NCBI GenBank assembly: GCA_050948825.1
Contig: JBMNEO010000009.1
Location: 68,887-132,886, forward strand
Length of the DNA: 64,000 nucleotides
Direction of reading: 5' to 3'
Source: Dethiobacteria bacterium
Lineage (GTDB): Bacteria; Bacillota; Dethiobacteria; DTU022; UBA8154
Below are positions 12,567-59,681 of the stretch, in pieces. Position 1 is the stretch's first letter. Every line of letters starts with the position of its first letter. The position numbers and the translations under genes are program-made. The notes beneath the pieces are model-generated. The model had not been told where the DNA came from, did no database searches, and saw only the letters and a program-made list of their open reading frames with translations.

Positions 12567-12598
12567 CCTTTTTCCCTCCCTGTTCTGTAATAACCCTT

Positions 12599-13243
12599 TT
12601 ATAATAAACTGGTCATCCTGGGCCGTGGTATAACCTGGTAGTTCTTTGGGGGGTGATATTTGCGCATCAAATCCAGCCGACCCTGTTCTTTTAATCTTTC
12701 ATATATAAGCGTAAATGCACAATCTTTTTCTTTATCTACCTCGCATTTACCTTTGTTCGTACCGCCACAGGGCCCATTTAATAAACCTTTGTGGCAGGCT
12801 GTCAGCGGGCAGATTCCTGCTGTTTCCCCCAGAATACACTGGCCGCATTGGGCACAGGCCTCGATAAAATGTCCCGGGCTTTTTTCCATACCGATAAAAA
12901 GGGTATCCAGAGCCGGGATAACCGGCTTGACTAAATAAGAGTTGACCCGCTGCACGCCCAGCGCGCAGGCCATAACGATAATACACTGCGCATCCTGAAT
13001 GGCTCTTGCATTTTCATTGATAACCTCCGCAGTCATCTCGTCACAAGCAGTGGGTATTACTATCCAACCTGTAACCAGCTTGCCCTCACCCTGCAAGCTC
13101 TCTTTCATCGCCTGAACCTCTTCTATCCCCCCGGTTTTAGCCATAGTTGCACAGGTACCACAGCCAATGAGAAAAATGCGATTAAAATCCTCACTCAATT
13201 GTTTCACTTCATCATAGGGCTTCTGCCTGGTTATCGATTTCAT
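12599..13243 (-). CDS. metV: MetV (methylene-THF reductase C-terminal-domain protein, Cys-rich)
   Basis: 214 aa with Cys clusters GCGTCATMAKTGG and CAQCGQCILGETAGICPLTACHKGLLNGPCGG..GKCEV. It sits immediately upstream of metF. RBS AAGGAGG. Confidence 0.75.
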   Translation of the reverse strand: MKSITRQKPYDEVKQLSEDFNRIFLIGCGTCATMAKTGGIEEVQAMKESLQGEGKLVTGWIVIPTACDEMTAEVINENARAIQDAQCIIVMACALGVQRVNSYLVKPVIPALDTLFIGMEKSPGHFIEACAQCGQCILGETAGICPLTACHKGLLNGPCGGTNKGKCEVDKEKDCAFTLIYERLKEQGRLDLMRKYHPPKNYQVIPRPRMTSLL

Positions 13244-13254
13244 CGTAAACCTCC

Positions 13255-16320: not shown

Positions 16321-16801
16321 GTTGCTCCCCCTTTTGCTTAAATAGCCGCCCAATTTTTTTAGGGTTCATTCTGCCATGGACATGCTGATCAATAACCAAA
16401 CTGGGAGCCAGCGCACAAACGCCAAGACAGGCCACTGTCTCTAATGTGTATTCCAGATCATCTGTAGTCTCGCCTTCATCTACCCCCAGATGTTGTTTTA
16501 CCAGTTTGAGGACAGTTTTTCCACCCCGGACATGGCAGGCTGTCCCCCGGCAGACCCGCACCGTTTTCTTGCCGCGGGGTTCGGTGTACAACTGGGCATA
16601 AAAGGAGATTACCCCTTGCACTTCACTGGGAAATAGTTTCAGTTTGTCGGCGATAACCGGGATTGCCTGAGGAGGAATGTAACCGAGCTCGTTCTGGATT
16701 TTCTGCACCATCGGAATTAGAGACCATTGCTCATCGCTGTACTCCGCAACAATTTCATGCAAACGCGTCCAATCAACCTGCACTTCCTTTTCCTTATGCA
16801 T
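16307..16801 (-). CDS. NuoE/HydC-like [2Fe-2S] thioredoxin-like ferredoxin subunit
   Basis: 164 aa with motifs VCRGTACHVRG and ACLGVCALAP. The stop overlaps the downstream start by 14 nt. Confidence 0.85.
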   Translation of the reverse strand: MHKEKEVQVDWTRLHEIVAEYSDEQWSLIPMVQKIQNELGYIPPQAIPVIADKLKLFPSEVQGVISFYAQLYTEPRGKKTVRVCRGTACHVRGGKTVLKLVKQHLGVDEGETTDDLEYTLETVACLGVCALAPSLVIDQHVHGRMNPKKIGRLFKQKGEQHEST

Positions 16802-16805
16802 GGAT

Positions 16806-19460
16806 TCAGCCCCTTTCTATCCGGACATAACATGTTTTTCGGGCAGAAGTATTAGCCGGCGTTTCCGGGAGAAAACTGAAAAGACCGGATATGGAATGTT
16901 CTGCTGCAGAGCGCGGAAGTGTAGCAGTCCCCTCCGGCAACGAACCGACGATCTCCGCCACCGCCTGCAGTTGCCCCTCAGGTGAGACAACCCGGACCTG
17001 ATCCCCTGAGCGCAGCCCCATCTTTTGAGCGTCAGCTTCATTAATCCGCACCTTAATAGAAGGGGAAAATTTGCTCAATCTCCTGGAATTTGCACTTCTA
17101 ACCCCGCTGCCTGAGTGATACAAGGAAGTCTCTGCCAGCAGAATATAAGGATAGCTATCATCCGACGCCTTTGCCGGGGGGCTATATTCCGCCAGTGAGA
17201 AACAGGGGAAACTTTTTAAAGGCAGCTTGTAATCAAACCTTGTATTCCATAACTCTTGCTCTTCCGGGCTATCTACGTCGCGTTCATTTCTATATAACGG
17301 CACTAATTCCCTGATTTCATCCATAACCTGCTGGAGAGAAGAAAACGGCAGTGGTTTTTTCATAGCTTCAGCCAGCTGCAGTATTATCTCCCAATCGGGC
17401 CTACTTTCGCCCACAGGATCAATCGCTTTATGGATAGTTTGCACCTTGCCTTCCAGGTTGGTAAAGGTTCCTTCTTTTTCGGCAAAGCCGGCCGCGGGCA
17501 AAACAACTTTGGCCAGTTTGGCTGTTTCTGTCAGAAACAGATCCTGAACGACCAGGAAGTCCAGAGAAGCGAGCGCTTCTTTAACCAGAGCGGCCTGGGG
17601 AAAACCGGCCAGAGGATTTTCACCGGCTATATACAGCCCTTTTATTTTTCCTTCCCCGGACTGTTTGATTATTTCTAAAGCACCTGCCCCTGGTCTGGCA
17701 GGCAGGAGCACATCCCAGCGTGCTTCAAATATATTTCTGGCCTCTGCTTCCCCTACATGCTGATAGCCCGGCAAGAAATCCGGCAGCGCTCCCATATCAC
17801 AGGCACCCTGTGCATTGCAGTCCCTCTGGAGTGCATGCAGCCCGCCGCCTTTGCGCCAGGTGTTACCGGTCAGCAAGGTAAGGTTGATGAGTGCTTTTAC
17901 GTTTTCCACCCCCAGTTCCTGCTGGGTGATCCCAGTGCCATAAACAATCGCCGCTTTGCCGGCTGCAGCATAAAGCCTGGCGGCGTAGCGCATCTGCTCC
18001 ACACCAACGCCTGTTACGGCCTCTCCTGTTTCCAGAGGATAGTTGCTCAGTGCTTCGGCCAACAGTTGGAATTTATCCGTTTTCCGGGCTACGAATTCCC
18101 GATCGATCAGATTTTCTTCAATAATCACTTTGGCCAGGCAATTCAGCAGTGCCAGGTCGGTGCCCACCCTGGGCTGCAACCAGCAATCGGCAAAAAAGGT
18201 TAGCTTTGTCCGGCGCGGATCGATCACGATCAATTTGGCTCCGCGAAGTTTAACTGCCCGTTTAATCTGATAGCTTACCAAAGGAGCTGAAGCCTCCGGA
18301 TTAGCTCCAATTAATAGGATTACTTCGGCCTGCTCTAAATTTTTCAGGCTTTGTGTAATGCCGGGAAAACCAAAAGTGTCGCTGAAAGCCCGGAGTGTTG
18401 TATTATAATAAAGGCTGCTGCCGTTATCGATATTATTTGTACCCAGCACGCCCCGTGCAAACAACTGTAACAGGTAGTTTTCTTCATTGGTGCAGTTGGC
18501 GGAGCCTATTACCGCCAAACTGTCCGCGCCATGTTCTTCTTTAATCTTTTCAAAAGCCCCCGCCGCCATCGTCAGGGCTTCTTCCCAGGTTGCCTCCTTA
18601 AAATCACCGTTTACTTTTATTAATGGTTTGCTCAACCTCTTCGGGCTATGGATGAAATCACAACCGTAGCTGCCTTTAACACATAGCGCCTCCTGATTGT
18701 CTTGCTCTTCAAATGCCGGCTTTACCCGGGCAACCTGGTTATCCTTTATCTCAAGCGAGATGCTGCATCCACAGCCGCAATAGGGACACGTTGTTTGAAC
18801 AGCATTTCCGATAGCCCCCCTGTACAGCGCCTCTTTTTCCATTAAAGCCCCCGTAGGACATAGAGCCACGCAGGTTCCACAAAATGTGCATTCCGAATAT
18901 TCCAGGGGAGAATTATTTAAGGTAGCCGGCTTTGCCTTAAACCCCCGGCCGAAATAATCAAAAGCACCTTCAATAACCAGCTCCTGGCAAGCCCGAATAC
19001 ACCTGGCACATAAAATACACTTGCTCATATCTCTGACGATAAAGGGGTTTACTTCTTCGGTAACAGCCGGCTGCGGAATTCTGTCTAATTCAATTAAGCC
19101 AATTCCTAAATCCGCAGCCAGCTGGCGCAGTTGGCACTGGTTTCCTTTATCGCATACCAGGCAAGAATCGGGATGGCTGGCAAGAATTAACTTGAGGATC
19201 ATCTTGCGATGTTCCAGAACTCGCGGAGACTCGGTGTTGATAATCATCCCCGGTGCGATAGGGGTAACACAGGATGCCAGCAAAGCACCGTTTTGTTCAT
19301 TCTCCACCAGACAAAAACGGCATGCCCCAATGGGAGTGAGCTTGGAATGATGGCAGATAGTGGGGATATTTATGCCGGACTCCCGGGCAAGTTCCAGAAT
19401 TGTCATCCCTGGATGGCCGCTAACTTCTTGCGTATTAATAGTTAACGTTACCGGTTGCAA
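16806..19460 (-). CDS. FdhA/NuoG-like molybdopterin-oxidoreductase-fold subunit with an N-terminal FeS domain; FDH catalytic residues absent
   Basis: N-terminal 2Fe-2S (CHHSKLTPIGACRFC), a His-ligated cluster (HPDSCLVCDKGNQC), two ferredoxin-type 4Fe-4S clusters, and the MopB 4Fe-4S (CPYCGCGCS). GTNNIDNGSSLYYN stands where FDH-H has GTNNVDCCARVUHG. The likely start is TTG 19460, after AAAGGAGGA. Confidence 0.8.
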   Translation of the reverse strand: MQPVTLTINTQEVSGHPGMTILELARESGINIPTICHHSKLTPIGACRFCLVENEQNGALLASCVTPIAPGMIINTESPRVLEHRKMILKLILASHPDSCLVCDKGNQCQLRQLAADLGIGLIELDRIPQPAVTEEVNPFIVRDMSKCILCARCIRACQELVIEGAFDYFGRGFKAKPATLNNSPLEYSECTFCGTCVALCPTGALMEKEALYRGAIGNAVQTTCPYCGCGCSISLEIKDNQVARVKPAFEEQDNQEALCVKGSYGCDFIHSPKRLSKPLIKVNGDFKEATWEEALTMAAGAFEKIKEEHGADSLAVIGSANCTNEENYLLQLFARGVLGTNNIDNGSSLYYNTTLRAFSDTFGFPGITQSLKNLEQAEVILLIGANPEASAPLVSYQIKRAVKLRGAKLIVIDPRRTKLTFFADCWLQPRVGTDLALLNCLAKVIIEENLIDREFVARKTDKFQLLAEALSNYPLETGEAVTGVGVEQMRYAARLYAAAGKAAIVYGTGITQQELGVENVKALINLTLLTGNTWRKGGGLHALQRDCNAQGACDMGALPDFLPGYQHVGEAEARNIFEARWDVLLPARPGAGALEIIKQSGEGKIKGLYIAGENPLAGFPQAALVKEALASLDFLVVQDLFLTETAKLAKVVLPAAGFAEKEGTFTNLEGKVQTIHKAIDPVGESRPDWEIILQLAEAMKKPLPFSSLQQVMDEIRELVPLYRNERDVDSPEEQELWNTRFDYKLPLKSFPCFSLAEYSPPAKASDDSYPYILLAETSLYHSGSGVRSANSRRLSKFSPSIKVRINEADAQKMGLRSGDQVRVVSPEGQLQAVAEIVGSLPEGTATLPRSAAEHSISGLFSFLPETPANTSARKTCYVRIERG

Positions 19461-19509
19461 ACGAAATCCTCCTTTCAAATACGCTTTTGTTCATATCCTT
19501 AAAAAGATG

Positions 19510-39295: not shown

Positions 39296-40855
39296 TCAAG
39301 AAGAAGACATTCCGATAATCTTAAAAAGTTTCTCCAAATCGAGGTGTTCCCTGAGAAGCGCAGCCAGGCTATCATAGCTTTGCTCGCGATGTTTTTGTAT
39401 TTCCAGCCCGCCCTCTTCTGCAAGAGGCCGCAGGCCTGCTCTTTTTCGCAGAATATTTAACCATCGCCGGCGGAAGAGGTCGTTGTGAAATATATCATGC
39501 AGGTAGGTTCCCCAAACAGGTAAATCAACGGATGATGCTCCGATTAATTCTTCCTCGATACCCGGAGGCGCGATAATACTGATACACGGGGCATCCGCAG
39601 GGATCTCACTTTTCCCGTGCCTGACATCATACCCGTCAAGTTCAAGGTTTGCACATGACCCCCAGCTGGCGTGTGAAGAAACCCTGGCTTTAACCCGGCG
39701 GGTTATTTTTGCAGGGGTAAAAATTGTTGAGACCGGAAGTAAACCCAGCCCTTCGGCAACCTGGATATCCTGGTTCTCGATCCCTTCCGGATCATGAAGC
39801 TCCCTCCCCAGCATCTGGAAACCACCGCAAATACCGACAACAGGAACCCCCCGGGCATTTAGCTCCATGATCCTGCCTGCCAGCCCGGACTCGCGCAAAA
39901 AATAAAGGTCTCCGGTGGTGTTTTTGCTTCCCGGGATTATAATAGCATCTGGAAAGCCAAGAGAGTTTTTATTATCTACATAGCGCAGCACAACGTCTTC
40001 TTCCGCGTCCAGCGGACCGAAATCCGTATGATTGGAGATCCTCGGCAGTTTGATCACGGCTATATCCAGCAGATCCGTTATCTTCCCTATCTTCCCGGAT
40101 TTTTTAGTTTCGGAGCCGCTCCTATCCTGAATTGAAACGGAATCTTCCTCTTCAATCCCGTGGTTGCTGACGTACGGGATAACTCCAAGCACAGGCAGGC
40201 CGGTACGCTTCTCCAAATAATCAATGCCCGGCTTCAGGATCTGCGCATCTCCCCTGAACTTATTGATGACAAACCCCGCGACCATATCCCTTTCCTGAGG
40301 GGTAAACAGCTCGAGAGTCCCGATAATGGAAGCGAAAGAACCGCCCCGGTCAATATCGGCCACGAGAATAACTGGGGCATCTGCCAGAAAAGCCACCTTC
40401 ATGTTGGCAATGTCCTTCTCCTTTAAATTAATTTCTGCAGGGCTGCCGGCGCCTTCGATTATCAGAAGATCATACTCATTGCGCAGCTTCCCCAGCGCCT
40501 CCCTGACGACCTCGATTCCTCTGGGAACATAGTTATTGCGGTACTCCCCAGCATTCATATCGGCAAGGGGCTGCCCCAGGACTATAACCTGAGAAACCAT
40601 TTTTTCTTTAGGCATTAATAAAATCGGGTTCATCTCCACCGTTGGGATAACCCCTGCCGCCTGGGCTTGAATTCCCTGGGCATGTGCAATTTCCCCTCCG
40701 CTTTGCGTAATGTAGGAATTAAGGGACATGTTTTGGGATTTAAAAGGTGCAACCTTAAAACCCTCCCGGTAGAAAAGGCGGCAAAGACCAGTCGCCAAAA
40801 AGCTTTTCCCCGCATTAGAAGATGTCCCCTGAATCATGAGACATTTTGTCGGCAT
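39296..40855 (-). CDS. cobQ: cobyric acid synthase
   Basis: N-terminal P-loop MIQGTSSNAGKS and a C-terminal GATase-3 domain (GICGGFQMLG ... H). 519 aa. Confidence 0.9.
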   Translation of the reverse strand: MPTKCLMIQGTSSNAGKSFLATGLCRLFYREGFKVAPFKSQNMSLNSYITQSGGEIAHAQGIQAQAAGVIPTVEMNPILLMPKEKMVSQVIVLGQPLADMNAGEYRNNYVPRGIEVVREALGKLRNEYDLLIIEGAGSPAEINLKEKDIANMKVAFLADAPVILVADIDRGGSFASIIGTLELFTPQERDMVAGFVINKFRGDAQILKPGIDYLEKRTGLPVLGVIPYVSNHGIEEEDSVSIQDRSGSETKKSGKIGKITDLLDIAVIKLPRISNHTDFGPLDAEEDVVLRYVDNKNSLGFPDAIIIPGSKNTTGDLYFLRESGLAGRIMELNARGVPVVGICGGFQMLGRELHDPEGIENQDIQVAEGLGLLPVSTIFTPAKITRRVKARVSSHASWGSCANLELDGYDVRHGKSEIPADAPCISIIAPPGIEEELIGASSVDLPVWGTYLHDIFHNDLFRRRWLNILRKRAGLRPLAEEGGLEIQKHREQSYDSLAALLREHLDLEKLFKIIGMSSS

Positions 40856-40874: not shown

Positions 40875-40943
40875 GTGCGACATTAGGGACGGTTCTCGCT
40901 GTCGCATTTTTTGCGACAGCGAGAACCGTCCCTAATGTCGCAC
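40875..40943. repeat. perfect 32-bp inverted repeat (5-nt loop) built from two GGGACGGTTCT elements
   Basis: GTGCGACATTAGGGACGGTTCTCGCTGTCGCA, then ttttt, then TGCGACAGCGAGAACCGTCCCTAATGTCGCAC. Each arm also contains TGCGACA...TGTCGCA. It fills the cobQ-hesB spacer. Confidence 0.95.
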
Positions 40944-40954
40944 TTAGTAAGCCC

Positions 40955-41266
40955 TTAAGAACAGGATCCGCAACAGTCCGAACAGGAGTCCTCACCGGTT
41001 ATGGAAAAACCGCCCCGTGGGCCCTCATGGAAATCGATAACCTTGTCGTTTAACTGTACAGTTATTTTTTTCTCATAGACAATGGGAACCCCTTCAATTT
41101 CATCTACATTATCCTGGCCTTCATGAACCGACTCTTCCAGAGCCATACCTAACCGGGGTCCGCCTCAGCCTACACCATCCACATAAATCCTGATATAAAG
41201 CCCTTCCCCGTTCTGCTTTAAGACTTCTTTCATCTGTTCTGCCGCTGCTGCTGTTATTCTCATCAT
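40955..41266 (-). CDS. HesB/IscA-like Fe-S assembly protein with in-frame UGA (putative selenocysteine)
   Basis: Reading from ATG 41266 (RBS GGAAAGGTGA) gives MMRITAAAAEQMKEVLKQNGEGLYIRIYVDGVG-UGA-GGPRLGMALEES.. in frame with the 63-aa tracked ORF. The TGA at 41165-41167 sits where IscA/HesB proteins carry the conserved Cys of the GGGC(S/G)G motif. The C-terminus is Cys-rich (CSDCCGSCS). Confidence 0.65.
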
Positions 41267-41284
41267 GCTCACCTTTCCTTTCTG

Positions 41285-42208
41285 TCAACTTTGATATTTA
41301 ATATCTGCCTTTTCCCTTAACAGGTTTATTTGTTCTTCCATCTTTTCATAAACAAGCTCTTCAAGCAATTTTTCTTCTGCCGCTTCCTTAACCTCGTCAA
41401 AAGTAGCTTCGTGAGCTTCCCTGCGATCGAGCACTTCTATAATATGAAAGCCGTGCACAGTCTCTACCGGAGCACTACGAGAACCTATCGCCAGATTGAA
41501 CGCAGCCTCCTCAAACTCGGCTACCATTTCTCCCCTTTGGAAGAAGCCTAAATTTCCTCCCTGTTCGGCGGATACGGTATCAATAGAATGCTCTTTAGCA
41601 AGTTCAGAGAAATCTTGCCCCTCGTCCAGCAGTTGAACAACGTCTTCCGCCTCCTCCAGCGTTTCAACTAAAATGTGACGGGCTTCAACCTGTTCCGGGG
41701 TGTTAAATAAATACTGGTTTTCTGTATAATATTCCCTTACTTCCTCATCCGTTATTTCAATCTGCTCGCGAACTATTTTACGAAAAAGAAGTTCTATTTC
41801 GAGATCTTTTCGCAGGGCTTCTTCCGTAAGGCCATATTGTTCCAGAGCTTGATAAAAATAATCCTCTGCTCCATAGAAATTTTCCTTAATTACTTTGCCA
41901 ATTTCAGCATCTATATCCTCTTCATCAACGCTTATCTCAAGCTCTTTCGCCTCTTGAAGAATTAAGCGGTTGCTGATCAGACGTTCCAAAACCTCCCGGC
42001 CGCCGTTGGTAAACATCGCATCATAAAGTTCGTCTTTTGTTATCTCCTCACCATTCACAGCAGCAACTACTTCACTTTCATTATTATTATTATTGACAAA
42101 ATTAATTATTAATACTGCCGCCGATGCCAGAACTATTAAAAGAACAACTATATAAACCACCGGCAAAAAACCCTTACGGGATACGTTTTTTTTCTCCTCG
42201 GGCTCCAT
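41285..42208 (-). CDS. PrsA/SurA-like peptidyl-prolyl isomerase (parvulin type), membrane-anchored
   Basis: TM anchor, a SurA_N-like region, and a PPIC rotamase motif (ARHILV ... GGNLGFFQRGEMVAEFEEAAF ... GFHII). Start at ATG 42208 after AAGGAG. Confidence 0.85.
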   Translation of the reverse strand: MEPEEKKNVSRKGFLPVVYIVVLLIVLASAAVLIINFVNNNNNESEVVAAVNGEEITKDELYDAMFTNGGREVLERLISNRLILQEAKELEISVDEEDIDAEIGKVIKENFYGAEDYFYQALEQYGLTEEALRKDLEIELLFRKIVREQIEITDEEVREYYTENQYLFNTPEQVEARHILVETLEEAEDVVQLLDEGQDFSELAKEHSIDTVSAEQGGNLGFFQRGEMVAEFEEAAFNLAIGSRSAPVETVHGFHIIEVLDRREAHEATFDEVKEAAEEKLLEELVYEKMEEQINLLREKADIKYQS

Positions 42209-42379
42209 CTCTTCACTCCTTCTAGTAATATACACGTTGTCATACTGTATGCTTTAAGCAGGGCAACTTATTCTTATCCTCTTTCTGTTCGTTATATAAT
42301 GCGGATAATCCTTTTTTTATAGATATAAAATATTTTCCTGCAAAACATAAAAAACATAATAACATAGATGCAGGTACAG

Positions 42380-42493: not shown

Positions 42494-43024
42494 TTATCTG
42501 TTAAAGGTATCCCAGTGTACAATCTCCTCCATTTTTTTCCGTTTTGTTTCATGCCGCCCGGGATCTCCTTGATCAGCCGGATAACCGAGGGGGAGCAGCA
42601 CTATAGGCTCAACATGCGGAGGCAGCCTTAAAAGCTTATGCAGCGCCCTGGTATCAAAATTGCATACCCAGCATGTTCCCAATCCCAGCTCTGCTGCCGC
42701 CAGCGTCATATGATCCGCTGCTATGGCCGCATCGATATCACAGTGTCCTTTGCCGTCCGGGCGCCGCCAGGCCTTGCTGTGATCGCCGCAGATCATTATT
42801 ATCACCGGCGCTTCATAGATCCAGGCACCGATTTCGTATGTATCAGCTACCTTTTTCCTCATTTCTTCCTCACGGAAAACAATAAAATGCAGCGGCTGGA
42901 AATTTACCGCAGAAGGGGCAACCCTTCCTGCTTCAAGAACCTGATGCAATTTATCTTCTTCAACGGGGATATTTTTATAGCTCCGGACGGAATACCTTTT
43001 TTTAGCCAGCTCCAGGAATGTCAT
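42494..43024 (-). CDS. nitroreductase-family protein
   Basis: KRYSVRSY, PSAVNFQPLHF, and the 176-aa size. RBS GGAGG. Confidence 0.85.
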   Translation of the reverse strand: MTFLELAKKRYSVRSYKNIPVEEDKLHQVLEAGRVAPSAVNFQPLHFIVFREEEMRKKVADTYEIGAWIYEAPVIIMICGDHSKAWRRPDGKGHCDIDAAIAADHMTLAAAELGLGTCWVCNFDTRALHKLLRLPPHVEPIVLLPLGYPADQGDPGRHETKRKKMEEIVHWDTFNR

Positions 43025-43041
43025 TTTCTCTACCTCCGGTC

Positions 43042-43860
43042 TTAATAAGATAGCAGCCAGATCTCTGTTACCTCCGGCAGTGTACTTTTAGACACTGTAA
43101 CCGATTTTTCGCCGCTGTGCTTGATATTATCTTTATCCTGCAAAAACACATCCAGATCCTGCAACGGCCAGTCCGCTATCGCCTGAGTGCGGTAATGCAT
43201 GGGTATTACGACTCTGGGCCTGAGCTGTTCTATTACCTGATCGGCTTCCAAGGGATCTATTGTGTAGTGTCCCCCAGTTGGGATTAAGAGAATATCCACT
43301 GGAGACAAACCGTTTATCTGTTCTGCGTTGAGGAGATGCCCAAGGTCACCCAGATGAACCAGCCGCAGGCCGTCCATTTTGACAATAAAGGCAGCGTTAC
43401 GTCCCCTGTCATGACCCCCGGAATTATCATGGAAAGTATTCACGGAGGCAAATGTAACTCCGTTAATGGAGTAGTCCGTATCCTGCCACCCGTCAGCGGT
43501 TAACCCACGCAGCACCTGCGGATCACCCTGGGCTGCCTGCACATAATTGTGATCGCTGTGCTCATGGCTAACGGTAACGACATCGGCTTCCTGCGACAGG
43601 GCTCCGTATCCACCCGTTCCGGCCGCATACGGATCCATCAGAATCCGGGTTTCTCCAGCCGATTGCAGCAAAAAAGCAGCATGGCCCAAATAAGTTATCT
43701 TCAATTCCTTCTCCGGCATCTGTTCAACCTCCTCTTCAGTTTCTGTTTTGGATTTATCTTCTGCATTGCCCTCTGCATCTTCCAATACTTCCTGTTTTGG
43801 AAGAGCTTCCAGCCCTTCTTTCTCTTCTTCCGGCACCTGTCCCCCCCCTGTCAGCACCAC
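43042..43860 (-). CDS. MBL-fold metallo-hydrolase (downstream part of a gene split at a G8 tract)
   Basis: HxHxDH motif (SHEHSDHN) with further His/Asp ligands. The tracked ORF starts at a GTG immediately after the homopolymer. It has an E/K-rich linker and no signal peptide of its own. Confidence 0.8.
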   Translation of the reverse strand: MVLTGGGQVPEEEKEGLEALPKQEVLEDAEGNAEDKSKTETEEEVEQMPEKELKITYLGHAAFLLQSAGETRILMDPYAAGTGGYGALSQEADVVTVSHEHSDHNYVQAAQGDPQVLRGLTADGWQDTDYSINGVTFASVNTFHDNSGGHDRGRNAAFIVKMDGLRLVHLGDLGHLLNAEQINGLSPVDILLIPTGGHYTIDPLEADQVIEQLRPRVVIPMHYRTQAIADWPLQDLDVFLQDKDNIKHSGEKSVTVSKSTLPEVTEIWLLSY

Positions 43861-54000: not shown

Positions 54001-55242
54001 TTAATTGTTGCTCAGATTATAGAATAACCTCAAGTAGTCAGCGATATTTTTTGTCACCAGGAATTCTCTTCTTGCCTTTTCCTTTGCCGCTTCTTTCATC
54101 TCTTCGGCCAGCAGCGGATTCCTGAGCAATTTTAATGCTTTCTGAGCGCATTCCTCTACAGTGTTTACCAGGTAACCGGTTACACCGTCCTCAATTTGCA
54201 GTTTAATGCCTCCAACATTGCCTCCTATTACCGGTGTGCCTTTCCATAAACTTTCTGCAACGGTAAGCCCAAATCCTTCCCTGATTGATTTTTGCAGCAC
54301 TATACTTGAAGCCGTTTGAAAGGCATTGACCTCCAGGTTGGAGATCCCATTAAAATTTGTAATGATAATGATATCGTAATCCTCCCCTGCCCTGCGCAGT
54401 GTTCTGTACAGATAGTCCCAGCCTTCCGGATCATCGCTTGCCATGGAACCGATCAGCGCCAGCTGGACACTGGGCAGTTCTTTTTTAACTATTTTGTAAG
54501 CATCAATTACCCCCAGCGGGTCCTTCCAGGGATCAAACCTTGAAACCTGGGAGATGAGCGGTCTCTGTGTATCAACGCCGCATTTATTGATAATCGCTTT
54601 TGCATCTTCTTTTTCCAGGGAAATGTTTTTAGGGCTAAGGGGATCGATGGATGGGGTAATATAGACGATATTTTTAAACTCGGAGTCCTCGTTGACAAAG
54701 CCTTTCATGGTAAAAATCCAGGTATCAAAATCAAGCAAATACTCGTAAAGGAAGTTCCAGTACTCAGGGTTAGGAGTTGAGGTATCAATATGACACCGCC
54801 AGATCCATTTTTCCCCTTCTTTTTTACCACGGTATTTTATCAATGCGGCAGGCTGGGGATCGTGAACAACAATAAAATCATATTTCCAGTCGCGCATATA
54901 AGAAGCATTCATCTTGTTGTATTTCAGATAAATATCGATATCAGCGGGGAGCAACTCCCCTTCCTGCCCCTGCAGCCTGTTATGAAAACTTTTTGTGATT
55001 TTATAAAACTCCTCATGGCCCAAAATTGTCCACCAGTCAACATTCAACCCCATATCCTTCATAAGGGGGACTACCGAATGCAGCTTTTCAGCCACTCCGC
55101 CACCGTAGGATGTGGCGTTAATCATGGCAATCCTTTTATTTTTTAATTTTTCGATGAGATACCTGAGTTCGATCTCTGCCTTCTGATCAATAAACTCCAG
55201 GTAATCATTGATACTTTTTTTCTCTACTGTTACCAGCTGCAA
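54001..55242 (-). CDS. treT: trehalose synthase TreT-like GT4 glycosyltransferase
   Basis: Collinear similarity to archaeal TreT as remembered: NATSYGGGVAE..HS.VPL, VHDPQPAAL, WRCHID.S.PN, PSIDPLS.KN, QVSRFDPWK, DDPEGW, REGFGLTV.E..WKG.PVIG. TTG start after GAGGAGGAAG. Confidence 0.75.
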   Translation of the reverse strand: MQLVTVEKKSINDYLEFIDQKAEIELRYLIEKLKNKRIAMINATSYGGGVAEKLHSVVPLMKDMGLNVDWWTILGHEEFYKITKSFHNRLQGQEGELLPADIDIYLKYNKMNASYMRDWKYDFIVVHDPQPAALIKYRGKKEGEKWIWRCHIDTSTPNPEYWNFLYEYLLDFDTWIFTMKGFVNEDSEFKNIVYITPSIDPLSPKNISLEKEDAKAIINKCGVDTQRPLISQVSRFDPWKDPLGVIDAYKIVKKELPSVQLALIGSMASDDPEGWDYLYRTLRRAGEDYDIIIITNFNGISNLEVNAFQTASSIVLQKSIREGFGLTVAESLWKGTPVIGGNVGGIKLQIEDGVTGYLVNTVEECAQKALKLLRNPLLAEEMKEAAKEKARREFLVTKNIADYLRLFYNLSNN

Positions 55243-55308: not shown

Positions 55309-57102
55309 ATGGAAAAAATGGGATTCAATATTATCGATCGCGAAAAAGCCAGGATCGAATTCAGGGTCTTTGCTTATCAGAAAAAAGGGGTCAGCCTTTT
55401 GCTTCGGACAAAGGACGGGGAGAAAACCATCCCTATGGAGCAGGAGGAACCCCATATCTACAGTACCGTCGTTGAAGGTCTGGGGCTCGACCTGCTTTAT
55501 AAGTTTAGCATAGAAAATGAAGGCGATTATCCGGACCCTTATTCCAATTACCAGCCGCAGGGGGTACACGGGTTTTCCCAGGTTATCGACCACGGGAGCT
55601 ACTCCTGGAACGATGGGCAATGGAAGGGCAGGGATTTGGAGAAATTCATTATCTATGAACTGCATCCCGGTACTTTTTCCCCCGAAGGAACTTTTAAAGG
55701 GACGGTTGAGAAGCTCGACTATCTCCTCGAACTGGGAATTAATGCCATCGAATTAATGCCCGTCACCCAGACCCCGGGAAGGTGGAACTGGGGATATGAT
55801 GGAGCAAATTTTTTCAGTGTCAACAAAAATTACGGCACCCCGGATGATTTAAAGTTTTTGGTCGATACCTGCCACCAAAAAAAGATCGGCGTTATTCTAG
55901 ATGTCGTATATAATCATTTGGGACCGGAAGGGAATTACCTGCCGGTATATGGGCCCTATTTTACGGAAAAATACAAGACTGGATGGGGCGCAGCCGTTAA
56001 TTATGACGACGGCTTTAGTGAATATACCCGTGCCATGGTGCTGGAAAATGTACGTTATTGGCTGGAACAGTACCATATAGATTGTCTGAGGTTGGATGCT
56101 ATTCACGCGATCATGGATAAAAGCAGCAACCATATTTTGCAGGAAATGAGCTCAACAGCAAAAGAAGTGGGCAAAAAAACCGGACGTAAAATCTTCCTGA
56201 TCGCAGAAACTGATGAAAACGATGTTAAAATAATTAATCCGCCGGAAAAAGGAGGTTACGGCATTGATGCTCAGTGGATGGATGATTTTCATCATATCAT
56301 CCACAGTGTTTTAACCGGTGAAAAAGGGGGATATTACCAGGACTACGGCTACCTTGAAGGGCTGGAGAAAGCTTTTAAGAATTACCTCTATACCGGTGAA
56401 TTTTCCCAGTTCTGGCAGAAAAACCGCGGCACCGATGCTTCACAAAATCCCGGCTATCAGTTCGTCGTCTCTCTGCAAAACCACGATCAGGTAGGCAACA
56501 GGGCCTGCGGAGGAAGGATCTCCGCGCTGGTGGATTTTCATTTTTTAAAAGCAGCGGCAGGCTTAATTTTTTTGTCTCCCTATATACCTTTACTTTTCAT
56601 GGGCGAAGAATATGCAGAAGAAAACCCGTTTCTGTTTTTTACCGATTATGAAGACAGCAAACTGCAGTCAGCGGTTTCAGAGGGACGTCGTGAAGAATTT
56701 AAAGACTTTAACTGGGACGAGATCCCCAATCCACAGGATGAACGCTCTTTTTTTAACTCCAAACTTACTTCCAGGGAAAACTGGAAAGAGGAAAACCAGT
56801 GGATTTTTAATTTTTACCGCGACCTGATCAACCTGAGAAAAAATCACCCTGCTCTGCTTCACCTTGAAAAAGATAATACCGAGGTCAGGGTAAATAGCGA
56901 ACAGAAAATGGTTGAAGTAAAAAGGTGGAATAGCAATAAAAAGCTGAGGGCCCTTATAAACCTGGGCGAAGAGGAGATCCCCCTCGAAGTTACCGGAAGC
57001 CGTCAAATATTTAACTCCGAATGGAAGCAATACGGTGGAAAAATTGAGGGAAATAGTTCCACCTTATATAAAGGCAACCTGATTATCTTCGAAGAAAGCT
57101 AA
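55309..57102 (+). CDS. treZ: malto-oligosyltrehalose trehalohydrolase-like GH13 enzyme
   Basis: GH13 regions: ILDVVYNHLG, CLRLDAIHAI, LIAETD, LQNHDQVGNR. N-terminal CBM48-like domain. 597 aa. Confidence 0.75.
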   Translation: MEKMGFNIIDREKARIEFRVFAYQKKGVSLLLRTKDGEKTIPMEQEEPHIYSTVVEGLGLDLLYKFSIENEGDYPDPYSNYQPQGVHGFSQVIDHGSYSWNDGQWKGRDLEKFIIYELHPGTFSPEGTFKGTVEKLDYLLELGINAIELMPVTQTPGRWNWGYDGANFFSVNKNYGTPDDLKFLVDTCHQKKIGVILDVVYNHLGPEGNYLPVYGPYFTEKYKTGWGAAVNYDDGFSEYTRAMVLENVRYWLEQYHIDCLRLDAIHAIMDKSSNHILQEMSSTAKEVGKKTGRKIFLIAETDENDVKIINPPEKGGYGIDAQWMDDFHHIIHSVLTGEKGGYYQDYGYLEGLEKAFKNYLYTGEFSQFWQKNRGTDASQNPGYQFVVSLQNHDQVGNRACGGRISALVDFHFLKAAAGLIFLSPYIPLLFMGEEYAEENPFLFFTDYEDSKLQSAVSEGRREEFKDFNWDEIPNPQDERSFFNSKLTSRENWKEENQWIFNFYRDLINLRKNHPALLHLEKDNTEVRVNSEQKMVEVKRWNSNKKLRALINLGEEEIPLEVTGSRQIFNSEWKQYGGKIEGNSSTLYKGNLIIFEES

Positions 57103-57316: not shown

Positions 57317-59272
57317 CTATACATAAACCGCTTCCCGAAGGGTATTGAAGTATTCCTCAATCTCCCCCTTCCCCATGGAGTCTATTTCACGGATCATTGC
57401 AGGGAAAATAGGTGGGTATAGCTCGTAAAGAAACTCATACATTTTATCCACCAGATACTCCTGATCGGGCACCGCACCCCAGATTTTCTGTATATGATCG
57501 GTGGCCATAAAAACAGCCTGGCAGTAATCCCGCATCAGCTGGAGCATCCTCTTCAGGGTAAAATAATCCACGGCCGGACTTTTGTTTACCGTATACAACT
57601 CCGCTGCTTTCTGAAGCGCTTCTTTTTTCCACTTAAATGCATTTTCTATTTCTTTATCGGCTGAAGACAGATCGCACCCTTCTTCTCTGAAGCGCTCCAT
57701 GCCATAACGGAGATATTTAATACGGTTGTCGATAAAAACATCCAGCGTTCGGACAATGCCGACAAGGTTGCGCTCATCTAATCTTTTTAAAAAGCGGCTG
57801 CAAATTAAATCCGCGAAAGAATCCTCCAGTTTTTTTAACAGCACCGAGCAAATTAAATACCCTTTCAGGCAGGGAATTTTTTGCCTCCCCTCCGTCGGCC
57901 TCCATCCCCAGTTGCAGGCCCTTTTCATCAATCTCAGGTACATTATTGCCTGAATATCGGAATCTTCACGGGTTAGCTCATACCCGGTTTGATCAAAATG
58001 TTTCCCGTCCGCCGGGATATTTACCGCCAGGTTGAAATTTTCCACCAGGGTATCAAATATCCCGCAGTGATATTTACCATTTTCCCAGAAAATATGCGGG
58101 TGGTCGTAGAGCCCGGTTTTCTCCTTTTCATACCTTCCCGCCCCGAAGACTCCAAGAGGGGGATAATGCCCGTCTACTCTCAGGATTAACCTGATCTCCG
58201 GAGCCCAGTTTATACTATCAAAAAACAGCTCGGGCAAATTATCCAGCCTGCCGGGCTTCATTACCTCGTCAATGTACTCATCCGGTGTGACAAAATGTAC
58301 GCGTAACGTTTCTTTCGCCTCCTCGAGCACCTCTTCCCAGGCTTTTTCCATAATATCCAGGGCGATATCTCCAAAGTCCATCAGCTCCAGATCCTGTAGA
58401 TAAACAAGAACACCGTCCTCCGGGGCGTTATTCAACTCACGGCAAAGCACTTCCTTATAAATTTCCACACCCTCTTCAAAACTGATGGGGTACTTTTCCC
58501 CTTCACCGTAAAGGTATTCGTTTTTGAACACGGGGTAGTTGCCCAGCTTGTATCCCTGGAACTTGACCTCTTCCCGCTTCATTTTGGTAATCGGCCGCCA
58601 GATCTCCTGAGATATTGGAAAGTTCCGGGGGAAAGCAAGGATATTTTGCTTTTCTGTCTTTATCAGAAAGGGCTTATATTGATAGTCGCCCTCCCCCTTG
58701 AATTGAAAGGACACCTTATCGTCGGAGAGGTGGGGGAAAATTACATAATTAATGTTCGCTTCCTCCACACCTTTCATTTTATCAAACACATAAGAAGCCT
58801 CCGTGGCAAAAAGGCCTTTATATTTCGGATAAGGAACCCCCATCAGGTTATGCAGGTATTCCATGTTCCACTGGATTTCCTGCGTTATCTCCTCATTTTT
58901 CAGCAGCGAAACGTGTGTATGATGGGCATGGCCATAGATGGGGTAAAGCCTTTTTCCGGCATAAGCCTCCCGCAGATTTTGAAACGAATCCGGCAAGACA
59001 TTCTTTATCTGGCAGAGAAGCTCGTTGGTATATTCCACGCAGATGGGAGCATTTATTTTTTCTGCAAACTCTATGCTCCTGGAATAAATATCGCGCCCTT
59101 CTTCTTTTCTTTTTTTAATGTAATTTTCGTCCAGAATAGTATTTTTCATCGGATTGCCGTCATCCAGTCCGGAAAGAAGTACCTCCGGCAAATCCCAGAG
59201 CAGCTCATGGGCATGGAACGCCAGGATCACGTATACATTTTTCACAATAACCATCCTTTCATTAAGGCGCAT
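57317..59272 (-). CDS. GH57-like alpha-glucan-active enzyme (family assignment tentative)
   Basis: N-terminal ILAFHAHE resembles the GH57 (V)LHAH(L)P region, and YGHAHHTHVSLL resembles the YYHPILPLL region. About 650 aa. The start is uncertain (59272, 59254 or 59245). Confidence 0.55.
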   Translation of the reverse strand: MRLNERMVIVKNVYVILAFHAHELLWDLPEVLLSGLDDGNPMKNTILDENYIKKRKEEGRDIYSRSIEFAEKINAPICVEYTNELLCQIKNVLPDSFQNLREAYAGKRLYPIYGHAHHTHVSLLKNEEITQEIQWNMEYLHNLMGVPYPKYKGLFATEASYVFDKMKGVEEANINYVIFPHLSDDKVSFQFKGEGDYQYKPFLIKTEKQNILAFPRNFPISQEIWRPITKMKREEVKFQGYKLGNYPVFKNEYLYGEGEKYPISFEEGVEIYKEVLCRELNNAPEDGVLVYLQDLELMDFGDIALDIMEKAWEEVLEEAKETLRVHFVTPDEYIDEVMKPGRLDNLPELFFDSINWAPEIRLILRVDGHYPPLGVFGAGRYEKEKTGLYDHPHIFWENGKYHCGIFDTLVENFNLAVNIPADGKHFDQTGYELTREDSDIQAIMYLRLMKRACNWGWRPTEGRQKIPCLKGYLICSVLLKKLEDSFADLICSRFLKRLDERNLVGIVRTLDVFIDNRIKYLRYGMERFREEGCDLSSADKEIENAFKWKKEALQKAAELYTVNKSPAVDYFTLKRMLQLMRDYCQAVFMATDHIQKIWGAVPDQEYLVDKMYEFLYELYPPIFPAMIREIDSMGKGEIEEYFNTLREAVYV

Positions 59273-59312
59273 ATTTGCAAACAAATCCGCTGTAAGGCGG
59301 GGCAGGACAAAG

Positions 59313-59681
59313 TCATGCACAATGGCCTCTGACTGCGGCAATTAAGCTATCCCTGTCCCCATTTTGAGGCCTGCTCATTTGCCCGTTAGTTGTATTCACC
59401 AAATGATCAATATCCGCCAGTTTTTCCCATTTGCCCGGGCAAACAACATGCATGCCTACCTTTAAATCGCAGCCTTCAAGATTTAACATAACCAGTACCC
59501 TTTCACCGGAGCCATCGGCTGCCCGTCGCCCAATAACTCTTTTTCCATCCCCTCTTTTCCTCTCCATCCATAGCCCCAAAATCCTTTCAAATTTCCCCTC
59601 AGCGGCAGGGTTTATATTTGCCTCCTGAAATTCAGCATCCTTATCTTCCCATGGTTTCCTCGTGCTATCAAAAAAGGGCAT
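59313..59681 (-). CDS. hypothetical ORF (doubtful)
   Basis: 122 codons. The start codon lies inside a terminator-like hairpin. The tail (ERVLVMLNLEG..L.V...PGKWEKL) faintly resembles the C-terminal beta-domain of GH13 enzymes. Confidence 0.3.
   Translation of the reverse strand: MPFFDSTRKPWEDKDAEFQEANINPAAEGKFERILGLWMERKRGDGKRVIGRRAADGSGERVLVMLNLEGCDLKVGMHVVCPGKWEKLADIDHLVNTTNGQMSRPQNGDRDSLIAAVRGHCA

What the first reader, a model, noticed from the sequence alone, without database searches (positions are those of the whole stretch)
40955..41266. HesB/IscA-like gene with in-frame TGA at the conserved cluster-ligand Cys position (probable selenoprotein, under-called as a 63-aa ORF)
The tracked ORF (40955-41146) starts at an internal Met. 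Reading from ATG 41266, with RBS GGAAAGGTGA upstream, gives MMRITAAAAEQMKEVLKQNGEGLYIRIYVDGVG-TGA-GGPRLGMALEESV... in the same frame. That is exactly 40 codons upstream of the tracked Met, with the TGA at 41165-41167.

The N-terminal segment is the canonical start of A-type Fe-S carrier (HesB/IscA) proteins. The TGA falls where they have the Cys of the G-G-G-C-(S/G)-G motif. HesB-like selenoproteins are a known but rarely annotated prokaryotic selenoprotein family.

Directly at and after the UGA, an imperfect hairpin can be drawn: GAGGCGGACC / GGUAUGGCUC, 8 pairs with 2 mismatches, around the 7-nt loop CCGGUUA. This is SECIS-like but not convincing by eye.
Basis: partly seen in the sequence, partly recalled or inferred. 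Interest (0 to 1): 0.65.

Follow-up and report, generated by a model that had tools for sequence, protein, structure and literature searches.

The report
Under-called HesB/IscA-like selenoprotein gene
A small iron-sulfur-carrier-like gene, recorded in databases as a 63-residue fragment, is almost certainly a 103-residue selenoprotein whose in-frame UGA replaces a metal-binding cysteine; this is a useful annotation fix for a known but poorly annotated family, not a new kind of system.

Summary
ATG 41266 to TAA 40955 (minus strand) is one 103-codon frame with a single TGA at 41165-41167. Only the read-through product matches the Fe-S_biosyn/IscA family, and the TGA aligns to the first cluster-ligand Cys of solved IscA/ErpA structures.

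Evidence for translation through the UGA:
- 28 related loci (19 distinct genes, down to about 40% identity) all have TGA at this column.
- Both flanks are under purifying selection, including the G-G-P codons that would be non-coding if TGA were a stop.
- A sister clade has Cys (TGT) there.
- The window uses TGA as an ordinary stop elsewhere.

It is a hairpin 19 nt further downstream (41129-41145, U-G-G-A-N loop). It is identical in all 17 distinct sequences even at synonymous sites and fits the published bacterial SECIS loop, stem and spacing rules.

Caveats:
- No selA/B/C/D was found in the window or any flank, so Sec machinery in this genome is unshown.
- The clade scores below the curated cutoffs of both NCBIfam selenoprotein-HesB models.
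- The one Cys-form DNA I could read keeps the hairpin.

Verdict: a new member of a known kind, of moderate interest.

The parts
40955..41266 (-). Full coding sequence of the HesB/IscA-like selenoprotein: 103 sense codons including one UGA, plus the TAA stop at 40955-40957.
   Evidence: The homologue alignment places the family's first Met at ATG 41266. pN/pS is 0.12-0.40 upstream of the TGA and 0.11-0.29 downstream. RNA contigs span the whole gene.
41165..41167 (-). In-frame UGA, the proposed selenocysteine codon (residue 34).
   Evidence: TGA sits at this column in the window and all 28 related loci (19 distinct CDS), never TAA or TAG. It aligns to the ligand Cys of IscA/ErpA and to TGT in the Cys-form relative L029. 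It is identical in four independent assemblies.
41272..41278 (-). Shine-Dalgarno-like GGAAAGG, 5 nt upstream of ATG 41266.
   Evidence: Read directly. The motif is conserved in the close orthologues.
41129..41145 (-). Proposed bacterial SECIS hairpin, nt 23-39 counted from the U of UGA: U-G-G-C-U-C-U / GGA / A-G-A-G-U-C-G. The apical loop GGA is at 41136-41138. The tracked ORF's AUG (41146-41144) overlaps the 5' base of this stem.
   Evidence: The sequence is invariant in 17 distinct sequences, including synonymous sites: GCT 16/16, CTG 19/19, GAG 19/19. Pair counts: 24-38 GC in 17; 25-37 GU in 14 and AU in 3; 23-39 UG in 8 and UA in 7. RNAalifold recovers it independently. Stability is -6.2 kcal/mol with z = -2.66. 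The motif occurs once in the window (0.01 expected) and once in every locus. It fits the published bSECIS loop, stem and spacing rules.
41147..41159 (-). Small upstream hairpin, nt 9-21: N-C-C, a 7-nt loop, G-G-N. It may be a lower or auxiliary part of the SECIS, or a by-product of the Gly-Pro...Gly codons.
   Evidence: RNAalifold predicts it. The closing pair 9-21 covaries: AU in 4, GC in 3, UG in 3, CG in 1, GU in 1, and 5 unpaired. This is weak evidence, because both columns are free third positions of codons.
40958..40987 (-). C-terminal Cys-rich tail S-C-S-D-C-C-G-S-C-S, the counterpart of the CxC ligand motif of A-type carriers.
   Evidence: Alignment to the IscA/ErpA C-termini. Two Cys columns are invariant or nearly invariant across the clade. 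The tail is disordered in the model of the Cys relative (pLDDT below 50).

Best explanation
The locus encodes a 103-residue A-type-carrier-like (HesB/IscA fold) selenoprotein. Ribosomes start at AUG 41266. At UGA 41167-41165, SelB carrying Sec-tRNA(Sec) is recruited by a short mRNA hairpin 19 nt downstream (41129-41145, loop U-G-G-A-A). This inserts selenocysteine where Cys-type relatives carry the first cluster ligand. Translation then continues to TAA 40955. The product has Sec34 plus a C-terminal Cys-rich tail, and presumably binds or transfers an Fe-S (or Fe/S/Se) species.

What is shown: the single reading frame, its family and fold, the Sec/Cys column, translation through the UGA (from its evolutionary signature), the RNA-level constraint on the hairpin, and transcription as one unit.

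What is inferred: that the inserted residue is Sec, that the hairpin is the SelB-binding SECIS, and the biochemical role.
For: 1. One gene. PF01521 passes its cutoff only for the read-through product. NF038090 IscA_HesB_Se aligns end to end, residues 1-102 to profile positions 1-99 of 101, at E = 4e-17.

2. Sec/Cys column. The UGA aligns to the GGC(S/G)G Cys of 2apn, 1nwb and 1s98. A sister clade has Cys there (P0038, P0040-43, P0045-46), encoded by TGT in L029. The U-G-G-P sequence matches the published UxGP motif.

3. Translation through the UGA.
- TGA is conserved in the window and all 28 related loci (19 distinct CDS at roughly 35-95% identity), never TAA or TAG.
- pN/pS upstream (0.12-0.40) is about the same as downstream (0.11-0.29), at pS of about 0.45.
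- The G-G-P codons between the UGA and the tracked Met keep their amino acids while their third positions vary freely.
- In many relatives the 'tracked Met' is a CUG Leu, so no start codon is available there.

4. Standard genetic code. TGA ends 6 of the 45 long ORFs in the window, including the gene immediately upstream.

5. SECIS.
- The 14-nt core is invariant in 17 sequences. The fixed codons CTG, GAG and GCT are minority codons elsewhere in the same genes (23%, 25% and 15%). A naive chance estimate for 11 lineages is about 1e-23.
- The hairpin folds in all 17 sequences, at -5.4 to -9.9 kcal/mol; z = -2.66 for the window copy.
- It meets the published bSECIS constraints on loop pattern N1-G-[G|U]-N-N2, stem length and the 16-37 nt spacing, here 26 nt.

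6. Real and expressed. The sequence is identical in four independent assemblies, and RNA contigs run from 40937 to 41275 and from 40924 to 41436.

7. Fold. The model of the Cys relative (pLDDT 82, core above 90) matches IscA holding a [2Fe-2S] cluster (1x0g), plus ErpA and SufA, at TM 0.64-0.85.

8. Precedent. The HesB-like selenoprotein was confirmed by 75Se labelling in M. maripaludis (PMC11097638). A remnant SECIS was described in the Desulfitobacterium Cys form (PMC1794560).
Against: - No selA, selB, selC or selD was found in the 64-kb window or in any fetched flank of a TGA-form locus. An indirect attempt to place a SelD on an orthologue's contig failed. The Sec-decoding trait is therefore unshown for this lineage.
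- The stem is invariant, so there is almost no true covariation. Shuffle controls do not separate it from chance on the covariation measures. The case rests on conservation at synonymous sites.
- The only Cys-form DNA available (L029) keeps the identical hairpin. This fits a recent Sec-to-Cys conversion, but it also fits a hairpin with some other role.
- The window's minimal hairpin (-6.2 kcal/mol) misses the published MFE limit of -7.5 unless flanking sequence is included (-9.1 for UGA+41, which is itself not better than shuffles).
- No Rfam family matches.
Confidence: 0.85

Rival explanations
1. The TGA is a genuine stop. The locus is then either a decaying pseudogene or two separate small ORFs (33 aa and 63 aa), with the second translated from the internal AUG.
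For: Every public gene call treats it this way. The internal AUG exists in the window's clade. No Sec machinery has been shown.
Against: - TGA is conserved at one column in 19 distinct genes down to about 40% identity, with no frameshifts and no other stop.
- Purifying selection acts on both parts and on the six codons between the TGA and the AUG, which would be non-coding under this view.
- In many relatives the 'start' is CUG, with no alternative start nearby.
- The AUG lies inside the conserved hairpin.
- Neither half alone reaches a family threshold.
Confidence: 0.04
2. The UGA is translated, but not as selenocysteine. It could be read through by a near-cognate or suppressor tRNA as Trp, Cys or Arg, or the lineage could have reassigned UGA.
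For: Translation through the UGA is supported only by evolutionary signature, which does not identify the residue. Some gene callers produced W forms. Sec machinery has not been shown.
Against: - UGA is an ordinary stop for 6 of the 45 long ORFs in the window, so there is no reassignment.
- The W forms are a gene-calling artefact of a TGA=Trp code applied to short contigs.
- The column is a Cys metal ligand in homologues. This is the classic Sec/Cys pair.
- A hairpin that fits the bSECIS rules sits at the expected distance.
- The family is a known selenoprotein family.
Confidence: 0.06
3. The gene is a selenoprotein, but the invariant hairpin at 41129-41145 is not the SECIS, or not all of it. 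The element that SelB recognises could be the reader's hairpin (41140-41166) or a larger composite fold. The invariant block would then serve another purpose, such as pausing, stability or regulation.
For: The Cys form L029 retains the invariant block although it no longer needs Sec insertion. The window hairpin alone is weaker than the -7.5 kcal/mol rule.
Against: - [quoted passage not shown]
- Its stability equals that of shuffles (z = 0.08).
- It cannot explain the invariance of nt 30-38, and its lower half competes with the invariant stem.
- Retention of a SECIS-like remnant in Cys converts of this very family has been published (PMC1794560).
- In part of the Cys clade the Met/Leu codon has become Ile, which destroys the G24-C38 pair (P0045, P0046).
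Confidence: 0.12

Closest known systems
HesB-like selenoprotein family (Kryukov & Gladyshev 2004; Zhang et al. 2006, PMC1794560; TIGR01911 HesB_rel_seleno; confirmed by 75Se labelling in Methanococcus maripaludis, PMC11097638)
   Same: It is a small IscA/HesB-fold protein with Sec replacing the first conserved Cys. It has the UxGP motif (here U-G-G-P). It occurs in strict anaerobes. Its function is unknown. It is routinely mis-annotated.
   Different: It scores 33.1 bits against TIGR01911 (cutoff 66.35), and 10 other clade members score 28-44 bits. It has a longer C-terminal tail carrying several Cys. It uses a bacterial hairpin inside the ORF, whereas the archaeal members use a 3'-UTR SECIS.
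NCBIfam NF038090 IscA_HesB_Se (IscA/HesB family protein subfamily)
   Same: This is the best-scoring model, aligned end to end (residues 1-102 to positions 1-99 of 101, E = 4e-17). The length and architecture match, including the C-terminal Cys region.
   Different: The score is 62.3 bits against a curated cutoff of 85. All 11 clade members tested fall in the range 53-67 bits, and the Cys relative scores 72. The NCBI pipeline would therefore not name this clade from that model.
Cys-type HesB-like proteins of Desulfitobacterium and Desulfosporosinus that carry a remnant SECIS (Zhang et al. 2006, Fig. 4b)
   Same: This is a sister clade at 45-49% identity with the same G-V-G-[C/U]-G-G-P...M/L-T/A-L-E-E-S motif. 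L029 (Desulfosporosinus, judged by its SelD) keeps the same hairpin sequence after a TGT codon.
   Different: It has Cys instead of Sec and a longer Gly/Cys-rich tail (112-119 aa). In L029 it sits beside selD, yedF, an Se_S_carrier gene and an SclA-like gene. The window's gene sits instead between a PrsA/PpiC-like gene and cobQ.
A-type Fe-S carriers IscA, SufA and ErpA (PF01521; structures 1x0g, 1s98, 2d2a, 2apn)
   Same: The fold matches: the model of the Cys relative reaches TM 0.64-0.85. All three ligand positions are present, namely the first Cys column (here Sec) and a C-terminal Cys pair.
   Different: Sec replaces Cys at the first ligand. The C-terminal motif is C-x2-C-C-x2-C, not C-x-C. 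The window protein is below the TIGR00049 cutoff (44.6 against 58.8). It is not in an isc, suf or nif operon.

Membership tests
HesB-like selenoprotein (literature definition: a HesB/IscA homologue with Sec at a conserved Cys) | An in-frame UGA aligned to a conserved Cys of Cys-containing homologues (a Sec/Cys pair) | tested here: met
   The UGA aligns to the GGC(S/G)G Cys of 2apn, 1nwb and 1s98, to Cys in the sister clade P0038/P0040-46, and to TGT in L029.
HesB-like selenoprotein (literature definition) | Sec motif UxGP (PMC13188914, Table 1) | tested here: met
   The window reads U-G-G-P. All 19 distinct relatives read U-[G/S/K]-G-P.
HesB-like selenoprotein (literature definition) | A bacterial SECIS downstream of the UGA: 3-9 nt apical loop, 4-16 bp upper stem, G in the first two loop positions, 16-37 nt between UGA and loop (PMC13188914, Fig. 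2A) | tested here: met
   The hairpin at 41129-41145 has a GGA loop (or U-GGA-A, matching N1-G-[G|U]-N-N2), a 6-8 bp stem and 26 nt spacing. It is conserved in 17 of 17 sequences.
HesB-like selenoprotein (literature definition) | bSECIS minimum free energy of -7.5 kcal/mol or lower | tested here: inconclusive
   The window hairpin alone gives -6.2, and the UGA+41 nt segment gives -9.1. Across 17 relatives the 22-nt hairpin gives -5.4 to -9.9. The result depends on how much flank is counted.
HesB-like selenoprotein (literature definition) | The Sec-decoding trait (selA, selB, selC, selD) in the same genome | not testable with these tools
   None was found in the 64-kb window or in the flanks of TGA-form loci. 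The SelD contig-fingerprint attempt failed.
HesB-like selenoprotein (literature definition) | Selenium actually incorporated (75Se labelling or mass spectrometry) | not testable with these tools
   This is experimental. It has been done only for the M. maripaludis homologue (PMC11097638).
NCBIfam TIGR01911 HesB_rel_seleno | A whole-protein score at or above the curated cutoff of 66.35 bits | tested here: not met
   The window protein scores 33.1 bits with U written as C. Ten other clade members score 28.6-43.9.
NCBIfam NF038090 IscA_HesB_Se | A whole-protein score at or above the curated cutoff of 85 bits | tested here: not met
   The window protein scores 62.3 bits. Clade members score 52.8-67.3, and the Cys relative P0038 scores 72.2. 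The alignment is nonetheless full-length.
A-type Fe-S carrier superfamily (Pfam PF01521 Fe-S_biosyn) | A Pfam gathering score of 26.3 bits or more | tested here: met
   The read-through product scores 31.9 bits. The 63-aa ORF alone gives no hit.
A-type Fe-S carrier superfamily | The IscA/SufA fold | tested here: met
   This was tested on the closest admissible relative (Cys form P0038, 48-49% identical), not on the window protein itself. AF2 gives pLDDT 82 and pTM 0.70. Foldseek gives 1x0g, 2apn, 1s98 and 2d2a at E from 1e-7 to 6e-6 and TM 0.64-0.85.
A-type Fe-S carrier superfamily | Three conserved cluster ligands (E. coli IscA Cys35, Cys99 and Cys101) | tested here: inconclusive
   Position 1 is Sec. 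The C-terminal Cys residues align to the CxC region, but the motif is C-x2-C-C-x2-C. Which residues act as ligands cannot be decided from sequence.
NCBIfam TIGR00049 (iron-sulfur cluster assembly accessory protein) | A score at or above 58.8 bits | tested here: not met
   The window protein scores 44.6 bits. Four divergent clade members just pass, at 59.3-66.2 bits.

The most novel reading that the evidence does not exclude
This is a distinct clade of A-type-carrier-like proteins that lies outside both curated selenoprotein-HesB models. No Cys form was found within it; Cys occurs only in a sister clade. Its real job may be selenium or sulfur handling, not housekeeping Fe-S assembly. Three observations suggest this. 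Its Cys-form sister in Desulfosporosinus lies directly after selD, yedF and an Se_S_carrier gene, next to an SclA-like lyase. The Sec forms recur beside a nitroreductase and a Lactamase_B_3 hydrolase instead of isc, suf or nif genes. The Sec sits at a metal or chalcogen ligand position. If this is right, the protein would be a Sec-ligated carrier or relay in a selenium-delivery or redox pathway.
Probability: 0.2. Interest if true: 0.55.

Novelty: new member of a known kind. Interest (0 to 1): 0.35.

Why it matters
In practical terms, an entire clade of small selenoproteins from anaerobic-digester Bacillota is wrong in public databases. The entries are 46-66 aa 'hypothetical protein' or 'IscA' fragments, or 105-aa products with a spurious Trp. 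The clade also scores below the thresholds of the two NCBIfam models that could rescue it. The invariant hairpin (UG[G/A]CUCUGGANGAGUC, 19 nt after the UGA) is a simple and specific signature that could be used to re-annotate these genes.

In biological terms, the finding adds a well-supported bacterial case of Sec at a metal-ligand position rather than in a redox CxxU motif. It also gives one hint, the selD-yedF neighbourhood of the Cys sister, about the still unknown function of HesB-like selenoproteins. It does not reveal a new mechanism.

Tried and rejected
1. Thermodynamics alone. The 71-nt and 41-nt segments after the UGA fold no better than shuffles (z = 0.15 and 1.02). Only the minimal conserved hairpin stands out (z = -2.66).

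2. Rejected on spacing, loop sequence and stability.

3. A lower helix from the window's MFE fold (nt 7-11 with 39-43). It is paired in only 58.8% of cells across relatives, so it is not supported.

4. Rfam. There are no hits at gathering threshold in the window. Only chance-level hits appear around the gene (PrrB/RsmZ at 15 bits against 44).

5. ARAGORN for tRNA-Sec in the window and 18 loci found nothing.

6. A scan for other selenoprotein genes in the window, over all in-frame TGA read-through candidates. Nothing credible turned up outside this gene. The FdhA-like gene has Tyr at the Cys/Sec site.

I used a profile of the C-terminal 69 residues instead.

8. The search for related loci with the broad alignment failed for lack of a conserved stretch. 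With the tighter alignment, the genome and metagenome scans returned only 3 and 6 loci.

9. Using contig length as a fingerprint to place a SelD on an orthologue's genome. None appeared among the 120 hits listed out of 7999. That search did identify L029 as Desulfosporosinus.

11. Organism identification. A literature search for the assembly accession found nothing, and cluster records name only 'Bacillota/Firmicutes bacterium' MAGs.

Full report
**1. What is in the sequence**

On the minus strand, ATG 41266 opens a frame that runs for 103 sense codons to TAA 40957-40955. It has one in-frame TGA at 41167-41165. The tracked 63-aa ORF (40955-41146) begins at a Met exactly 40 codons after the first ATG. 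A GGAAAGG motif lies 5 nt upstream of the ATG. The gene sits 18 nt after the TGA stop of a PrsA/PpiC-like gene (41285-42235) and about 100 nt before cobQ (39296-40855).

The window is 45% G+C. It carries an acetogen-style cluster and comes from an uncultured Bacillota of anaerobic digesters. Its closest relatives are MAGs labelled 'Bacillota bacterium'. The exact stretch occurs in at least 20 digester or bioreactor metagenomes.

**2. It is one gene of the IscA/HesB fold**

- Pfam PF01521 passes its threshold only for the read-through product (31.9 bits against 26.3). The 63-aa ORF alone matches nothing.
- NCBIfam's best model, NF038090 IscA_HesB_Se, aligns end to end at E = 4e-17.
- Against solved structures, the TGA column aligns exactly to the Cys of the GGC(S/G)G motif of ErpA-like HI1723 (2apn), Aquifex IscA (1nwb) and E. 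coli IscA (1s98, Cys35). The C-terminal Cys residues align to their CxC motif.
- An AlphaFold model of the closest admissible full-length relative (Cys form P0038) is confident over the core (pLDDT above 90). It matches IscA holding a [2Fe-2S] cluster, plus ErpA and SufA, at TM 0.64-0.85. Its Cys-rich tail is disordered.

**3. The UGA is translated**

I collected 28 related loci. Together with the window they give 19 distinct coding sequences at roughly 35-95% protein identity. Every one has TGA at the same column, never TAA or TAG, inside the motif G-x-G-U-[G/S/K]-G-P.

Among the four close lineages (pS of about 0.45), the 33 codons upstream of the TGA have pN/pS of 0.12-0.40. The tracked ORF has 0.11-0.29.

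The Gly-Gly-Pro codons between the TGA and the tracked Met keep their amino acids in 19 of 19 sequences, while their third positions use three or four different codons. That is the signature of coding sequence. In many relatives the 'tracked Met' is a CUG Leu, so there is no start codon there.

The window uses TGA as a normal stop for 6 of its 45 long ORFs, so UGA is not reassigned. The TGA is identical in four independent assemblies. Metatranscriptome contigs cover the gene in one piece (X26: 40937-41275; X25: 40924-41436) with the UGA unchanged.

**4. The Sec/Cys pair and the state of the databases**

An exhaustive HMMER search with the C-terminal profile found 26 relatives. Most are 46-66 aa fragments starting at the same point.

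A full-length profile search found 105-aa 'complete' proteins with W at the column. For the two I checked, the DNA has TGA there, so a TGA=Trp code was used in gene calling.

The same search revealed a sister clade with a genuine Cys (P0038, P0040-43, P0045-46; 45-49% identical). In locus L029 that Cys is encoded by TGT. This is the classic Sec/Cys homologue pair used to define selenoproteins.

Public names for the truncated forms are 'hypothetical protein' or 'Fe-S cluster assembly iron-binding protein IscA'.

**5. The SECIS**

[quoted passage not shown] It also lies 8 nt from the UGA. Both properties violate the published bacterial SECIS model (PMC13188914 Fig. 2A).

The conserved element is a hairpin at nt 23-39 (window 41129-41145): U-G-[G/A]-C-U-C-U, loop G-G-A, then N-G-A-G-U-C-[G/A/U].

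- The core is identical in all 17 distinct UGA+60 segments.
- It is fixed at synonymous sites. Ala is GCT in 16 of 16 sequences (the other three have ACT Thr, which turns a G-U pair into A-U). Leu is CTG in 19 of 19. Glu is GAG in 19 of 19. Elsewhere in these same genes those codons are minorities (15%, 23% and 25%), and other conserved Gly, Pro, Thr, Val and Arg columns vary freely.
- For 11 lineages below 70% identity, a naive independence estimate of chance fixation is about 1e-23.
- RNAalifold recovers the hairpin independently.
- Pair 23-39 alternates between U-G and U-A.
- The hairpin folds alone in all 17 sequences, at -5.4 to -9.9 kcal/mol. The window copy has z = -2.66.
- The motif occurs once in the window (0.01 expected) and exactly once in each locus, always at this position.
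- It fits the published model: loop pattern N1-G-[G|U]-N-N2 (U-G-G-A-A), a 6-8 bp stem and 26 nt of spacing. The MFE criterion is borderline.

A small upstream hairpin (nt 9-21) has one covarying pair. It may be auxiliary, or a by-product of the Gly-Pro...Gly codons.

Because the stem is invariant, the covariation statistics are uninformative. The argument rests on conservation at synonymous sites.

**6. Caveats**

- No selA, selB, selC or selD lies in the window or in the flanks of any TGA-form locus. An indirect attempt to locate a SelD on an orthologue's contig failed. The Sec-decoding trait is therefore unshown for this lineage.
- The single Cys-form DNA I could read (L029) retains the identical hairpin. 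L029 is Desulfosporosinus, judged by its SelD. This is the same family as Desulfitobacterium hafniense, for which Zhang et al. 2006 described a Cys-type HesB-like protein with a remnant SECIS, and reported only Sec-to-Cys conversions in this family. That reading fits, and part of the Cys clade has lost the G24-C38 pair (Ile for Met/Leu in P0045 and P0046). One DNA sequence is still thin evidence.

**7. Comparison with what is known**

HesB-like selenoproteins have been a recognised family since 2004. The family is listed as TIGR01911 with motif UxGP, it was confirmed by 75Se labelling in M. maripaludis, and its function is unknown.

This protein has the defining Sec/Cys column, the motif, the fold and a SECIS-like element. 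It nonetheless scores below the curated cutoffs of both selenoprotein-type NCBIfam models: TIGR01911 at 33 bits against 66, and NF038090 at 62 bits against 85. So do all ten other clade members tested.

I therefore file it as a member of the HesB-like selenoprotein group in the literature sense. It belongs to a clade that the curated models do not capture, and I do not file it as a member of either NCBIfam subfamily.

**8. Function**

The best-supported role is an A-type-carrier-like protein with Sec34 and C-terminal Cys residues as ligands. This is inferred from homology and fold only.

The gene context is not isc, suf or nif. A nitroreductase and a Lactamase_B_3 hydrolase recur next to the gene in three divergent lineages (window, L027, L028). 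They are orthologous at 31-36% identity.

The Cys sister in L029 lies immediately after selD (376 bits), yedF (216 bits) and an Se_S_carrier gene, beside an SclA-like lyase. This hints at a link to selenium or sulfur trafficking, but it rests on a single locus.

**9. Verdict**

This is a new, consistently mis-annotated member of a known selenoprotein kind. I put confidence in Sec insertion at about 0.85, limited by the untested Sec machinery. It is of moderate interest.

Noticed in passing
window 40875-40943: A perfect palindrome with 32-nt arms and a 5-nt spacer (GTGCGACATTAGGGACGGTTCTCGCTGTCGCA / its complement) lies between the selenoprotein gene's stop and cobQ. It is unique in the window and absent from all orthologous loci. 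In four metagenomes the arm has 20-30 times the depth of the gene, with many different flanks, so it is a multi-copy dispersed repeat (REP-, MITE- or CRISPR-repeat-like?). It may double as the gene's terminator, since RNA contigs end inside it. Contigs also break at repeats, so this is not evidence of a 3' end.
   Followed up: partly
window 11682-19478 (minus strand): An acetogen-type cluster: an FdhA-like gene (16806-19478), a NuoE-like gene (16307-16801), a NuoF/GltD-like fusion of 1032 aa (13255-16353), a MetV-like gene (12599-13243) and MetF/MTHFR (11682-12566). The FdhA-like protein has Tyr where formate dehydrogenases carry the catalytic Cys/Sec (SLYYNTT against YjgC's SRYCQSP) and scores just below the TIGR01591 cutoff (608 against 666). 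It may be a non-catalytic electron-transfer subunit of an unusual MTHFR complex.
   Followed up: partly
L029 759-4339: In a Desulfosporosinus contig the Cys-form HesB-like gene lies directly after selD (TIGR00476, 376 bits), yedF (TIGR03527, 216 bits) and an Se_S_carrier (PF11823) gene, and next to a divergently transcribed SclA-like or cysteine-desulfurase-like gene. This is a selenium-metabolism neighbourhood for a HesB-like protein. A full-text search for papers mentioning YedF, SelD and HesB together returned only one general review.
   Followed up: partly
window 42494-43860; L027 4079-6144; L028 213-821: A nitroreductase (PF00881) and a Lactamase_B_3 metal-dependent hydrolase recur next to the Sec-HesB gene in lineages whose HesB-like proteins are only about 45-50% identical. 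The neighbours are homologous (31-36% identity, E from 2e-29 to 1e-49). This may be a functional module.
   Followed up: partly
P0007, P0015, P0029-P0037, P0039, P0052, P0057, P0058, P0060, P0063, P0065, P0068 (L014 628-630, L015 695-697): Public protein collections hold 'full-length' 97-156 aa versions of this family with Trp at the Sec position. In the two I checked the codon is TGA, so gene callers applied a TGA=Trp code to short metagenome contigs. The artefact hides selenoproteins as apparently normal proteins.
   Followed up: yes
L012 (CAZQXY010000088.1): This contig is labelled 'uncultured Desulfovibrionaceae bacterium' MAG, yet its HesB-like gene is nearly identical to those of the Bacillota digester loci L008 and L009. 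It is probably a mis-binned contig.
   Followed up: no
window 57317-59341 (minus strand): A 674-aa ORF with no Pfam match at E of 1e-6 or better sits beside trehalose-synthase-like (54001-55242) and alpha-amylase-family (55309-57102) genes. It may be an unrecognised glycoside hydrolase or transferase.
   Followed up: no
window 41092-41231: Metatranscriptome X28 holds two co-existing variants of the gene. The second differs at 6-7 positions within this 140-nt stretch (7 by the contig table, 6 listed individually) and resembles the L011-type strain, with the loop A changed to U and nt 39 changed from G to U. In both variants the UGA and the hairpin stem (nt 24-38) are unchanged.
   Followed up: partly
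window 1-64000: There is no tRNA gene and no Rfam family at gathering threshold anywhere in the 64 kb.
   Followed up: yes
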